A DNA stretch of 61,367 nucleotides, the filler included, from Hausera hauseri (Eukaryota), in assembly GCA_046269625.1 (NCBI GenBank). It is 11 parts of 11 records of this genome, joined end to end, with 100 filler letters (N's around TTAATTAATTAA, not from the genome) between each part and the next. Parts side by side here need not be neighbours in the genome. Positions count along the whole stretch, not along the records: positions 30,587 to 34,666 come from JBJURY010774203.1; 10 more parts are not named here. One strand, written 5' to 3'. Positions 30,587 to 34,766 of this stretch are shown here, piece by piece; position 1 is the stretch's first letter; each line of letters begins with the position of its first letter. The notes beneath the pieces are model-generated. The model was not told the DNA's origin and searched no databases. It saw only the letters and a list, made by a program, of their open reading frames with translations. The position numbers were made by a program, and so were the translations under genes.

Positions 30587-31330
30587 GAGAAAATCAGATG
30601 GTTTCTGCTCCCCCATTGCATTGTCGTTGAAGAAACGGTAAATTATTGAGTCCATAGATGGTTCCGTAAGTTTCAAAACGGTGTTGTAAAGATGAGTGTA
30701 TGGATCAGGTTTCTGGAAGATATCGAAAAAATCATGAATGGTCGTTTTTACAGTTGTTGGTAAAAGACAAAGCAGGCTATGGGCCTTAGTTACCGGATCA
30801 GTGATATTGTTTGATTGCAACCAGGGTTTGTGCAAACTAAGCCACGTTTTGTTAGACTGTTCGTGGTCAATAAAATACTCTGTGCATTGAGAAGTGTGTT
30901 TGACTGGTGAGGTTGTAGAAGCATAACTACTGAAAGAAGATGGCGTGTTAACGATCGACGATTTTTGGTTGAACGCCAAATGTGATGTTTTGGAGGTATT
31001 TCGATCAGTAGCCTTAATGGTAGGTGAAGATTCCATTCTATTACGTATGCGAATGTGTATGTGAATGATGATGTAATGGATTGAAGGTACAGAAAGGCTA
31101 CGGAGGTTGGCGTTAGTTATTGGTACATTATTGTACGTAAGATAAAAATCGGCGATGTTGGCGACGTGTAGTACGTAGTTGCGTAAGTAGAATGCGTCTA
31201 TGAAATGTATTATTCTGTGTGTGAATGAATGGTGGTTATTTAGAAAGTAATAAAAGGAAAGAATAGGTGTGAACGCAATTGTTTGGTGTGGTGACGAAAC
31301 ACACCATGGCGTGGGACTCATTGACTCAGG
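30587..31330 (-). mobile_element. gag: UBL-gag Gypsy family copy 2 (UBL 31037-31264 plus gag N-terminus, truncated by gap)
   Basis: ILSFYYFLNNHH...DFYLTYNN...HIHIRIRNR|MESSPT, then EYFIDHEQSNKTWL and MGEQKPSDFL. Confidence 0.9.
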
Positions 31331-32030
31331 ACAGAAAGTTGAATGGTTGATCATGCTATGGTTTGTTTGTAACTCAAAAGTATGAGATGACTGGACCACT
31401 TCATTAATTTCTATGTGACCGTCATCAAGTTCACGAATTCTTGCGAGTGTAAGGTATCTCGAAAATCTATGTCGTGGACAAAGAATAAGGTGAAACAACG
31501 GTTGAATAAAATAGATGAAATTTATCATGAGGACTAAAGAAAAAAAGTGTTTTGTTGGAATGGTCTAGAATCGCAACGAAGGTAAAAGTCGTGTCAGAAT
31601 GATTACAATTTGTATAAACAACATTCGCCTTCGCTGTATAACGGCAGTGTTTCAAAATTTCGAGACAACAGAGAACAGATGAAATCATAGCAAATATAGA
31701 GAAAATTTGGTTCTGCCAACAGGGGATGGTAGCAAATTAAATAAAATTGGGGACGCTAATAAAAACTGCAATAACCAAAATTTGGCCAGCCTCAGTTTTC
31801 TTTATACCGGTGTAAATAATGATGGGATTTGCACAGGAAATAGTCAGCATCGCCATAGCATTATAATGGATATGACCAAAATCATCAAACTTGTCCAAAA
31901 ATGTTCTAAAGAACATCGGTGAAACAGTGTAGGTTGTCCCATTTGAAATCTTGTATACCAACAACAAAGGGAACAATGCAATGGTCAGCAATAGCAATTT
32001 ATGTACCCATTTTAAATCACGTATATCATT
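31330..32030 (-). pseudogene. Multi-TM, GPCR-like gene fragment whose 3' part is in frame with UBL-Gag copy 2
   Basis: A series of hydrophobic segments (HKLLLLTIALFPLLLVY; YNAMAMLTISC; ILVIAVFISVPNFI; IFSIFAMISSVLCCLEIL), then INFIYFIQPLFHLIL resembling the TM7 NPxxY region. Confidence 0.4.
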
Positions 32031-32454
32031 TGCTATTTCCAAAAAAGTCATATTTTCTATCGAGAGCTGACCCGCCGGACTGATCGGCTTTAAAATGTTG
32101 TTCGAAGTGATTATGGTACTTATCAGGACCTGATGAGAGATGATTCTCAATTCCTCATTGATGTAAATACTTAAACATGAAAGTAAATCGGAAATCTCGG
32201 ATATACTCACATTTGAAGGGGAAACCTTATAATGGCAGATATATAGGTTTTAGGAAGATAAATTATTAGCTTTTTTCAGGAGTTATGACATTATCCCATC
32301 CTTTGATAGCGTTTTCCTGTTTCTTCAACAATGTCGTATGGATAACTTGTTGATTCAATAATTTCTGCATGGTATCAAAGGTTTGTCGAATAAGATTAAT
32401 GTAAATACTAAATGAGGTTATGTTCGTATCGTTTAATGTCATGGATGGGTTACT

Positions 32455-33115
32455 CGATTTGTAAAGAAACTTAAAGTTTGGTGGACTATAGCAAACCTTC
32501 ACAACAGCTTTAGCGAGACATTTAACATCTTTGTCACTTTGAGCCCAATGGGAAACTAAAACAGCATCGGGTACTCCGTTTTATATTGCTATTCGACAAA
32601 CTGCTTCAATTTCTTCCGTATGATTTTATTTAAAATTGTTTAAAGCAACGACCACTGGGACTCCTTGTTTTTTGCATTTTTCAATGTGGTGAATCATATT
32701 TTCACAGTCGGCTCCAACAGGGCCAACATTCGTTTCTTCATATTCGAAAGGCAAAGTTTGACAGGAAACAAAACCCGGGACGCCGCCATGAAGTTGAAGA
32801 GCTCGAAGCGATACAACCAAAACGGCAACATTTGGTACGATACTAAACGATTTGTATTTAATATTAAGAAATTTTTTTGCTCCGATATTGGCATCAAATC
32901 CGGTTTCCATGACATCCATTTTCTCCTACCAATTTAAGAACAATCGTATCAGCTATGTTTGATGAATTGCCGTGCGCTATGTTAACAAATGGTCCAGTAT
33001 GAACGGATACCGGACGACCTTCCGAGGATTGCATCAGGTTGGGTTTAATAATTTCTTTCATCAGAACTGTCATTGTGCCGCAAACACCCAAATAACTTGT
33101 TGTGATTGGATTCCG
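32455..33115 (-). pseudogene. MTHFD1: C1-THF synthase, formyl-THF synthetase domain fragment
   Basis: [66 protein letters not shown]. Frameshifted. Confidence 0.88.
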
Positions 33116-33310
33116 TGATTTATTATTTGAGTCAGGAGTTGTGGATAAGTCGCAATCAATAACAACAGATCCGGGCTTGATCCAGTAACCTTTTACAAAC
33201 TGTGCTTTGTGATTGGCAACCACGAGAATATCAACTCTACTAACTTCATCAATAATATTTTTAATTATCGAATGACAGACTGTAACTGCTGCCTGGTTCC
33301 ATAACAACAG
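33116..33310 (-). pseudogene. MTHFD1: C1-THF synthase dehydrogenase/cyclohydrolase (FolD-like) domain, second half
   Basis: [14 protein letters not shown]...DILVVA...[15 protein letters not shown]. Confidence 0.88.
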
Positions 33311-34092
33311 GTTATCCATTGAAGTATTATTTCTGTACAATGCTTGAGTAATGAAAGTAAGATTCTCCACGCCATACTCGTGTCCAAGAAAGAGTAAAAC
33401 ATGGTTAATGTAACAATTATGTTTCAGAAGTGATTCAATAAACAACCGGATAAAATTAAAGTATGTTTCAAGTTTTCCTTCAAACATTTTACCTATAGAT
33501 CCCAATAAAATCGAATCACCGGTAAAATACAGAGCATAATTTGTGTCATTACTACTATGAACTGCATCCAGTCGATTAATACTAAGAGAATAGATAACGT
33601 GACACAGTGGGTGACCAGGGAACAAAAGGGCTCCCATCGTTATGGAATCGGATGTCTCTGGTTTCAACAAACTAAAGCAAAAAATGAGCTTCTCGTTTTC
33701 TTTAATCAACAGATGTGTAGCGTGTTTTATATTACCCACTTTCGATCCAACAATCTGAATGTCGGGATACTGTTCAAGCAAATCTGGAACACCCAGTGAA
33801 TGATCATGATGTTCGTGAGTAATTAAAATCATTTTAAGAACTAGTTTATTTTCATCGATAAATGTAATAAACAAGGGAGCATAACCCGGATCAATCAAAA
33901 TGCTACCGGAATGGAAATTATGATAGACAACAAAACCGTAGTTGTTTAATGAATACAGAATGATTCCCGCATTAAATGGATTACATTTCATATTTTTAGA
34001 CAATATTTTTTGGATTTCCTTAGTTCGAGTTTAAAATAATACGGTCCAAATGGAGTATTCACGTACAATTTATACCCTAATCTTGCAACAAT
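33311..34092 (-). pseudogene. PNKD/glyoxalase II-like metallo-beta-lactamase fragment inserted inside MTHFD1
   Basis: [18 protein letters not shown] (PNKD-like leader), [48 protein letters not shown]. Confidence 0.85.
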
Positions 34093-34530
34093 ATCAGCCG
34101 TTGGTCGTCCGACAATGTTACTTCGGCCCAAAACAACGGCATGTTTTCCTTGGATACTTAAACCGGTAGACAAAATGGGTTCTAAATAACCTCTCATTGT
34201 ATATGGGACAACACATGAAATCGTTTCCCCAAGTGCCAATTTACCGGCATTTCCTTCACTCGACCCATCGACATCTTTTTTCACTGCAATGGAATTTGTG
34301 ATGAGATTAGAATTAACAACACTCGTACAGTCGAGCGGTAGCTGCACTAAAATTCCATGCACACTATTGTCACTGTTTAGTTTATCGAGAACTTTCAAAA
34401 TCTCATCTTCGTTGGCAGTGTTATTTAGCTTGGTGTGTAGTATTTTAATACCACACTCATCCGCATTAGCTAAGTTTTGTCGAATGAACACATTGGAAAC
34501 TTTACGATTATGTTTACCGCAATTCGGATG
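34093..34530 (-). pseudogene. MTHFD1: C1-THF synthase FolD-like domain, first half
   Basis: LNSDNSVHGILVQLPLD, KDVDG, GKHAVVLGRSNIVGRPTAD. Confidence 0.9.
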
Positions 34531-34766
34531 GTTTGACAAAGTTTTAAAATAAAATGATTTGTAACAACATGCCATATAAATTACAATGAATGTTGTCCGT
34601 CTCAATCCAAAGATAATGTTTCTTTTACAATTTAGGATTAGATTTTTTATAAAACTTGATTTTAACNNNNNNNNNNNNNNNNNNNNNNNNNNNNNNNNNN
34701 NNNNNNNNNNTTAATTAATTAANNNNNNNNNNNNNNNNNNNNNNNNNNNNNNNNNNNNNNNNNNNN

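What the first reader, a model, noticed from the sequence alone, without database searches (positions are those of the whole stretch)
31330..34605. Nested gene mosaic: PNKD-like sequence inserted inside MTHFD1, itself internally deleted and joined to a GPCR-like piece and UBL-Gag
Seen: the FolD domain breaks precisely between ...VGRPTAD and LLLWNQ... (contiguous in MTHFD1) with about 780 bp of glyoxalase II/PNKD-like coding sequence in between. GATA occurs near both junctions. FolD then jumps several hundred codons into the synthetase domain, which runs into unrelated sequence. All pieces are on one strand with no evident introns, and a 369-aa chimeric ORF stays open across two junctions. Inference: RT template switching among co-packaged mRNAs, i.e. 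cargo of the downstream element.
Basis: partly seen in the sequence, partly recalled or inferred. Interest (0 to 1): 0.7.

Follow-up and report, generated by a model that had tools for sequence, protein, structure and literature searches.

The report
Retrotransposon-stitched host gene mosaic
Pieces of three housekeeping genes are stitched together in front of a retrotransposon's gag gene, and most of the joins recur in diverged copies; the element's reverse transcriptase likely assembled them step by step by jumping between RNAs, a known process, and this copy now carries stops and frameshifts.

Summary
The mosaic is real. On one 4,080-bp contig (minus strand), MTHFD1's FolD domain is split by a 782-bp glyoxalase II-family insert with no codon lost. 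MTHFD1 then jumps about 340 codons into the synthetase domain. After 370 unassigned bases come DPAGT1 (residues ~100-310; not a GPCR) and a UBL-like leader plus gag of a CsRn1-type Ty3/gypsy family. The insertion point is a shared CAA, not GATA. Contigs of one public run include diverged copies (82-86% alike) across three junctions. They also include un-inserted and undeleted MTHFD1 forms, which expose a 10-nt in-phase repeat at the deletion. So the mosaic was likely built stepwise and amplified. Four more copies of the leader lie in the window, each behind different sequence; one follows gap-free glycogen-debranching-enzyme fragments. Best reading (0.65): reverse-transcriptase template switching, as in published LTR-mediated retrocopies. 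No parent gene or LTR was seen, so intron loss is inferred. This copy decays neutrally. The novel lead is a family-wide in-phase cargo slot ahead of a UBL-like leader (4 of 5 copies); the UBL fold is unproven.

The parts
34104..34509 (-). MTHFD1 FolD domain, first part (profile 45 to about 179), no stop
33322..34103 (-). 782-bp insert, glyoxalase II / HAGH-PNKD family (metallo-beta-lactamase fold), one frame break near 34010; starts with the CAA that also resumes FolD
   Evidence: junctions bridged
33122..33321 (-). MTHFD1 FolD domain, second part (profile about 180-246), resuming with no codon lost
   Evidence: uninterrupted form in 3 contigs
33113..33122 (-). Deletion junction (about 335-345 codons missing); site of a 10-nt word shared in phase by the two undeleted donor sides
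   Evidence: loose ends at 33111, 33118, 33122, compared by eye
32446..33121 (-). MTHFD1 synthetase (FTHFS) fragment, profile 591-818; frame break near 32915 and 2 stops
32894..34030 (-). 378-codon chimeric ORF (glyoxalase-like, FolD, FTHFS) open across two junctions
32076..32445 (-). Unassigned 370 bp; not the DPAGT1 N-terminus, no GPCR match; joined to FTHFS in other copies too
   Evidence: bridged by records 1 and 2
31448..32075 (-). DPAGT1/GPT fragment (residues about 100-310), one stop and one frame break near 31500-31546
31289..31447 (-). Unassigned open linker joining the DPAGT1 frame to the element's leader
31037..31288 (-). UBL-like leader of the element family; ends RGG-Met in copies A, C, D, degenerate (RNR-Met) here; fold unproven
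30587..31036 (-). gag N-terminal part (DUF7041, weak), cut by the contig end; 53-62% identical to copies C and D over the gag stretch
10332..16330 (+). Copy A of the family: 465-codon S/T-rich ORF running into the shared leader, then UBL-like, gag (CX2HX9CX3C), RT, RNase H, integrase
35121..40572 (-). Copy C: 349-codon ORF (weak talin-like stretch, E 0.75) running into the shared leader, then gag-pol
57238..61367 (+). Copy D: unassigned 188-codon ORF, stops before the leader, then UBL-like, gag, RT, RNase H
45223..48092 (+). Copy E: glycogen debranching enzyme fragments (894-1427 collinear), followed in the same frame by the start of the leader at the contig edge

Best explanation
This is a decayed, multi-copy string of host gene fragments sitting directly 5' of the gag gene of a CsRn1-type Ty3/gypsy retrotransposon family, likely assembled by the element's reverse transcriptase switching templates at short shared words. 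Inferred order: (1) DPAGT1 and other pieces were captured next to the leader and amplified; (2) a longer, uninterrupted MTHFD1 copy was added upstream and amplified; (3) in one sub-lineage RT left MTHFD1 at a CAA, copied 782 nt of a glyoxalase II-family RNA (possibly cargo of a sister element) and came back to the same CAA; (4) RT slipped between two in-phase 10-nt repeats and removed about 340 codons. Shown: the pieces, junction positions, shared words, diverged copies, the un-rearranged forms, neutral-looking decay. Inferred: the RNA step, intron loss, enclosure by LTRs, the order of events.
For: All pieces are in the sense of gag and align without intron-sized gaps. Junction J1 (34103) is bridged by a diverged contig (record 7, 33938-34388, 71 differences); J2 (33321) by an identical and a diverged contig (records 5, 6); J4 (32446) by two diverged contigs (records 1, 2). 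Three contigs carry uninterrupted FolD at 33321: their 30 loose letters match window 34104-34133 at 24 of 30 without a gap (by eye). At the deletion, 2 contigs continue as FolD and 4+4 as synthetase; the two sides share 10 identical letters in phase (13 of 15 with flanks; chance about 2e-5 per junction). Insert start and FolD resumption agree at 5 of 6 letters. Only about 160 nt separate DPAGT1 from the leader, in an open frame, too little for a typical LTR (LTR size is recalled). Four more leader copies have different 5' sequence, one with gap-free AGL fragments. Gag has the CsRn1 CX2HX9CX3C motif in copies A and D (definition in PMC2582038). Tan et al. 2016 describe the same signs, including multi-gene chimeras and secondary amplification (PMC5131818).
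Against: No parent gene was found (no genome held), so intron loss is not shown and the host's intron density is unknown. No LTR, PBS or TSD lies on this contig, and none was recognised in copies A or C. The deletion junction J3 was not bridged in the listed pieces (8 shown, 153 not shown), and the stretch 31404 to 31290 is crossed only by one contig with a 162-nt skip. A 3-nt shared word alone is weak (chance about 0.06). An exact return to the exit point with nothing lost also fits DNA break repair. All copy evidence comes from one run, which may be the assembly's own sample.
Confidence: 0.65

Rival explanations
1. The fragments are retrocopies inside the element, but the nested insertion and the deletion arose at DNA level after integration, by microhomology-mediated break repair with a templated insertion.
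For: Insertion with no loss and a 3-nt word at both ends; deletion between 10-nt repeats. Both fit end joining as well as RT switching (own knowledge).
Against: The insert is a same-sense coding piece, in phase at J2. It was amplified afterwards into diverged copies. One contig joins the same piece to another partner at 33345. DNA repair has no reason to favour sense and phase.
Confidence: 0.2
2. DNA-level capture by a Helitron or Pack-TIR element, with the gag region as one more captured or nested piece.
For: Such elements carry multi-gene fragments, some transcribed as chimeras (PMC13317346 passages). The element ends are not visible here.
Against: No intron-sized gap in about 800 aligned codons here or 510 in copy E. 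Five copies put different cargo at the same place before the same leader, and three continue into pol domains.
Confidence: 0.07
3. Independent LINE-made processed pseudogenes and a 5'-truncated LTR element lie side by side by chance and were copied together in segmental duplications.
For: The window is rich in broken mobile elements. No LTR was seen.
Against: No poly(A) tract or 3' end of any of the genes was seen; all pieces are internal coding fragments with abrupt joins. The leader frame stays open 92 codons upstream into DPAGT1 (chance about 0.002). The pattern repeats in other copies.
Confidence: 0.05
4. Assembly or library chimera.
For: Short contig from a very repetitive genome; only 0.59 of sampled words are in the one run found; J3 is not bridged in listed pieces.
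Against: Contigs 14-18% different from the window share J1, J2 and J4. The window copy has drifted at 3 of the 10 letters of the J3 repeat, as expected of an old junction.
Confidence: 0.03

Closest known systems
LTR-mediated retrocopies of animals (Tan et al. 2016, PMC5131818; passages read)
   Same: Partial mRNA copies inside LTR elements, short shared words at switch points (median 6 bp there; 3-6 and 10 nt here), several parent genes in one chimera (a four-gene mouse case), secondary amplification, often in frame.
   Different: There the retrocopy replaced part of the element's ORFs in all 15 Drosophila cases; here cargo sits 5' of a retained leader-gag. The passages read describe no nested A-B-A insertion with nothing lost. 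Flanking LTRs and parent genes were shown there and not here.
Maize Bs1 (via passages of PMC13317346, PMC7264820 and PMC5131818; primary papers not read)
   Same: An LTR element with fragments of three unrelated host genes fused into a chimeric ORF.
   Different: Bs1 became an expressed chimeric gene; this copy has stops and frame breaks and no third-position excess. Here one gene is nested in another, and the family carries many different cargoes.
CsRn1 clade of Ty3/gypsy (PMC2582038 passages)
   Same: Gag with CX2HX9CX3C in sister copies A and D; RT, RNase H, integrase order in A and C.
   Different: A UBL-like leader ending RGG-Met and kilobases of variable 5' cargo are not in the passages read or the search listings. 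The tRNA-Trp PBS was not found.
Burro and Ogre giant gypsy elements (PMC6431247 passages)
   Same: Gypsy elements with extra host-like domains or extra ORFs, at high copy number in an invertebrate (Burro).
   Different: Burro's domains are fixed parts of a polyprotein that begins with Gag. Here the extra sequence precedes gag, differs from copy to copy and decays.

Membership tests
LTR-mediated chimeric retrocopy | Host fragments flanked on both sides by LTR-element sequence | tested here: inconclusive
   3' side joined to leader-gag; the 5' side runs off the contig at 34666; no LTR recognised
LTR-mediated chimeric retrocopy | Parental introns absent | tested here: inconclusive
   No intron-sized gaps, but no parent gene available
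LTR-mediated chimeric retrocopy | Microsimilarity at switch points | tested here: met
   10 nt at J3; 3 nt, and 5 of 6, at J1/J2; J4 and J5 not testable without donors
LTR-mediated chimeric retrocopy | Fragments in the sense of the element | tested here: met
   All assigned pieces on the gag strand
LTR-mediated chimeric retrocopy | Further amplification after capture | tested here: met
   Diverged contigs share J1, J2, J4; dispersed insertion sites not seen
LTR-mediated chimeric retrocopy | Co-transcription from the LTR | not testable with these tools
   No RNA holder listed
CsRn1 clade Ty3/gypsy | Gag CX2HX9CX3C motif | tested here: met
   Two motifs each in copies A and D; no exact match in C; this contig ends before the motif
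CsRn1 clade Ty3/gypsy | RT-RNase H-integrase order | tested here: met
   Copies A and C; D is cut after RNase H
CsRn1 clade Ty3/gypsy | tRNA-Trp primer binding site and RT phylogeny | tested here: inconclusive
   A recalled PBS pattern found no convincing site; no RT tree was built
Ubiquitin-like (beta-grasp) domain | Beta-grasp fold | tested here: inconclusive
   Model pLDDT 49.6 with strand-strand-helix-strand-strand-strand order; best Z 3.2, no UBL listed; profile hit to polyubiquitin E 0.94
Ubiquitin-like (beta-grasp) domain | C-terminal RGG before the next protein's Met | tested here: met
   3 of 4 full copies (A, C, D); degenerate in this copy
GPCR (7tm) | Match to 7tm profiles | tested here: not met
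   31448-32075 is DPAGT1; no Pfam family in 3 frames of 32066-32454
PNKD (versus HAGH) | Closer to PNKD orthologues than to HAGH | not tested
   Family-level match only; the homologue search gave no hits; the resemblance of the N-terminal extension is recalled
Helitron / Pack-TIR capture | Retained introns and element-specific termini | tested here: inconclusive
   No introns evident; termini off the contig

The most novel reading that the evidence does not exclude
This gypsy family has a built-in N-terminal cargo slot. Translation starts in whatever host ORF was captured upstream, runs in phase through a ubiquitin-like leader, and host deubiquitinases cut after RGG to release a normal Gag. 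Any in-phase capture is then tolerated and out-of-phase ones are lost, so the family works as a high-copy exon-shuffling machine whose intermediates are still readable in one genome.
Probability: 0.25. Interest if true: 0.75.

Novelty: new variant of a known kind. Interest (0 to 1): 0.5.

Why it matters
The process is known, but here the before and after forms of two rearrangements are in the same data set, so the breakpoints and their shared words can be read directly. The family seems to carry different host fragments at one fixed position ahead of gag (5 copies among the window's 12 spacer-separated contigs). That makes the rate, sense bias and phase bias of gene capture measurable at scale in a likely invertebrate genome. 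It is also an annotation warning: such cargo mimics duplicated or fused metabolic genes. If the leader is a cleavable ubiquitin-like module, it would be a simple molecular reason why one retrotransposon family tolerates cargo.

Tried and rejected
No genome is held for the window, so parents and copy flanks could not be fetched. No RNA holder listed. Word-based homologue searches with the insert and the DPAGT1 piece found nothing; the exhaustive search found 374 relatives of the DPAGT1 piece. My guess that 32446-32076 is the DPAGT1 N-terminus failed with a 40-sequence profile; PDB (2 of 3 frames), Pfam and NCBIfam (3 frames) gave nothing. GATA as the junction was rejected. Selection on this copy: 15 of 52 listed differences lie at third codon positions (P 0.80); these are 52 sites from truncated tables (40 of 883 and 40 of 95 rows shown, coding sites only), biased to sites where other copies agree. 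The UBL fold was not established. No relatives of the gag in viral contigs or metagenome contigs. No LTR or PBS recognised in copies A-D; a 97-bp match between the A and C contigs (8002-8098, 43071-42975) is unexplained. Cargo of A and D is unassigned, C has only a weak talin-like stretch. The top MTHFD1 hits (45-48% identity; named ones look ichthyosporean, labels read from dataset codes) are too distant to place the host; AGL matched the 1532-residue animal-type entry best. Summed contig depth rises from 45-137 over MTHFD1 to 340-380 over DPAGT1 and 1,250-31,400 over leader-gag, but the tool states this is no copy number, so it is only a hint. Earlier findings of the scan: none. Supplements of the papers were not read; those of PMC5131818 may hold nested cases like this one.
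Full report
Setting. The window is a string of 12 contigs joined by N spacers; no whole genome is held. The finding lies on one contig, 30587-34666, entirely on the minus strand. The gag-pol sequence that follows at 34767 is another contig. The host is probably an invertebrate animal. That is an inference from a CsRn1-type gag, an animal-type AGL best hit and a weak Bcl-2 match; the MTHFD1 hits (45-48%) do not place it.

Anatomy. A profile of 12 trifunctional MTHFD1 homologues maps positions 45-185 to 34509-34081, 178-246 to 33322-33116, 591-660 to 33124-32915 and 662-818 to 32916-32446 (single-sequence view). 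Between the FolD halves lies a glyoxalase II-family piece; PNKD versus HAGH stayed open. After the synthetase fragment come 370 unassigned bases. Then comes DPAGT1, residues about 100-310, in three collinear parts, confirmed with a 40-sequence profile at 32075-31448. A 160-nt open linker leads into a leader and gag shared with other contigs. The ORF 32897-34030 (378 codons) crosses two junctions; the longest ORF in 200 shuffles was 166. The copy carries 3 stops in assigned pieces and frame breaks near 34010, 32915 and 31520.

The insertion. Homologues run G-R-P-M and then 14 residues to the C-H-S motif. The window keeps that register if the break is put between Pro and Met, at a CAA present both at the start of the insert (34103-34101) and where FolD resumes (33321-33319). 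A break at GATA would add one residue. The run settles it. Three contigs follow the window up to 33321 and continue with 30 letters that match window 34104-34133 at 24 of 30 without a gap (by eye): uninterrupted FolD. One contig follows the insert up to 34103 and continues with other sequence. The insert is 782 nt and no FolD codon is lost. A 3-nt word has a chance of about 0.06 per junction; insert start and FolD resumption agree at 5 of 6 letters.

The deletion. Two contigs continue past 33118 as FolD, and 4 plus 4 continue past 33111 and 33122 as synthetase. The two donor sides share 10 identical letters in the same codon phase, 13 of 15 with flanks (by eye; agreement within the groups 0.80-0.97; chance of 10 about 2e-5). 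The window has that word once, drifted at 3 of 10 letters. This explains why the deletion is in frame.

Is it real? One run, X1, holds 0.59 of the sampled words; it may be the assembly's own sample. Of its contigs, 1,683 lay on the contig: 182 at 99% or more, 340 at 95-99, 569 at 90-95, 592 below 90. Among the 8 listed pieces, record 7 crosses J1 with 71 differences, and records 5 (identical) and 6 (48 differences in 271) cross J2; records 2-4 tile 31404-32220. Among the 8 listed pieces (153 not shown), records 1 and 2 cross J4 with 29 of 180 and 26 of 185 differences. None listed crosses J3, and the last 100 nt before the leader are crossed only by one contig with a skip. Diverged copies that share junctions exclude a simple misassembly for J1, J2 and J4. 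J3 may be private to this copy or to few copies.

The family. A profile of the leader finds four full copies and a weak fifth at a contig edge (47991-48089, iE 0.007). Copies are 63-68% alike in DNA. Three end the leader in RGG-Met; this copy is degenerate there. Gag of A and D has CX2HX9CX3C, the CsRn1 signature (PMC2582038 passages). Each copy has different 5' sequence: an S/T-rich ORF (A), this mosaic (B), a 349-codon ORF (C), a 188-codon ORF (D), AGL fragments (E). The leader's frame stays open upstream for 440, 92, 280, 0 and 69 codons in A-E, and is the longest-open frame in 4 of 5 (P 0.045 at one third). Within B, the 3 testable joins J2, J3 and J5 are in phase (P 0.037); J5 is in both counts. 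A pooled 7 of 8 gives P 0.003, but it is post hoc and includes weak members: E has 4 stops between AGL and the leader, its internal deletion rests on a non-significant piece, and the phases of A and C are inferred through their shared leader. J1 and J4 were left out as untestable.

Selection. Of 52 listed coding differences between this copy and the others, 13, 24 and 15 fall at codon positions 1, 2 and 3: no third-position excess. The sample is truncated and biased, but it fits neutral decay.

Mechanism. Best reading (0.65): template switching by the element's RT at short shared words, in several rounds separated by amplification, since uninterrupted and undeleted MTHFD1 forms persist beside the derived one. 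The second donor may have been a sister element's RNA, because the glyoxalase-like piece is also joined to another partner. Rivals: DNA-level repair acting on retrocopies already inside the element (0.20), Helitron or Pack-TIR capture (0.07), chance neighbours (0.05), artefact (0.03). The main gaps are the parent genes, the LTRs and any RNA data.

Comparison. Tan et al. 2016 (PMC5131818; passages) report microsimilarity at 25 of 29 junctions (median 6 bp), multi-gene chimeras including a four-gene mouse case, further retroposition, and frequent in-frame ORFs. Maize Bs1 is the three-gene plant case (passages of PMC13317346 and PMC7264820). Burro elements carry fixed extra domains after Gag (PMC6431247 passages). 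So it works like an LTR-mediated chimeric retrocopy; membership is likely but not fully tested. What differs is the position 5' of a retained gag, the loss-free nesting, and the variable in-phase cargo before a UBL-like leader. Five searches (listings and abstract starts only) showed no report of such a leader on a gypsy Gag; the library lacks most subscription papers and no supplements were read.

Verdict. A real feature and a new variant of a known kind; interest 0.5. The boldest reading not excluded is a deubiquitinase-cleaved cargo slot that tolerates any in-phase capture (probability 0.25, interest 0.75). Its weak point is that the ubiquitin fold is unproven: model pLDDT 49.6, best Z 3.2, polyubiquitin E 0.94.

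Noticed in passing
window 45223-48092 (+): Glycogen debranching enzyme fragments, residues 894-1427 collinear (E 1e-89), preceded by an amylase-domain piece with several hundred codons missing between. The contig ends in a weak fifth copy of the leader (iE 0.007; DNA score above all 500 shuffles against A, B and C, not D).
   Followed up: partly
window 25820-26101 (-): Fragment of a Monjiviricetes-type fusion glycoprotein (Pfam E 7e-14) upstream of the RT, RNase H and integrase domains of another LTR element (22051-24191).
   Followed up: no
window 18514-19383 (-): 290-codon ORF with a weak Bcl-2 match at its BH2-like end (E 0.02).
   Followed up: no
window 2-2676 and 54657-57136: Related ORFs at 556-1533, 1667-2671 and 56060-57136, a DNA polymerase B piece at 54657-55046 (E 1e-6; Polinton-like is my recalled label), and a 1-kb inverted duplication at 78% identity.
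   Followed up: no
window 8002-8098 (+) and 43071-42975 (-): A GC-rich 97-bp segment, 78% alike, lies about 3.5-3.7 kb upstream of the leader in both copy A and copy C, in the element's sense. It could be a remnant of the 5' end or a packaging signal; absent from this finding's contig, which reaches only 3.4 kb upstream.
   Followed up: partly
window 39740-40572 (-): Cargo of copy C has a 41-residue stretch weakly like the talin FERM domain (E 0.75).
   Followed up: partly
window 33345 and 33450-34030, run X1: One contig joins the glyoxalase-like piece to a different partner at 33345, and a few very deep contigs (170-660) lie on this piece alone: it may also be cargo of a younger, larger subfamily.
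   Followed up: no
window 26318-27660: Array of degenerate 15-16-bp repeats.
   Followed up: no
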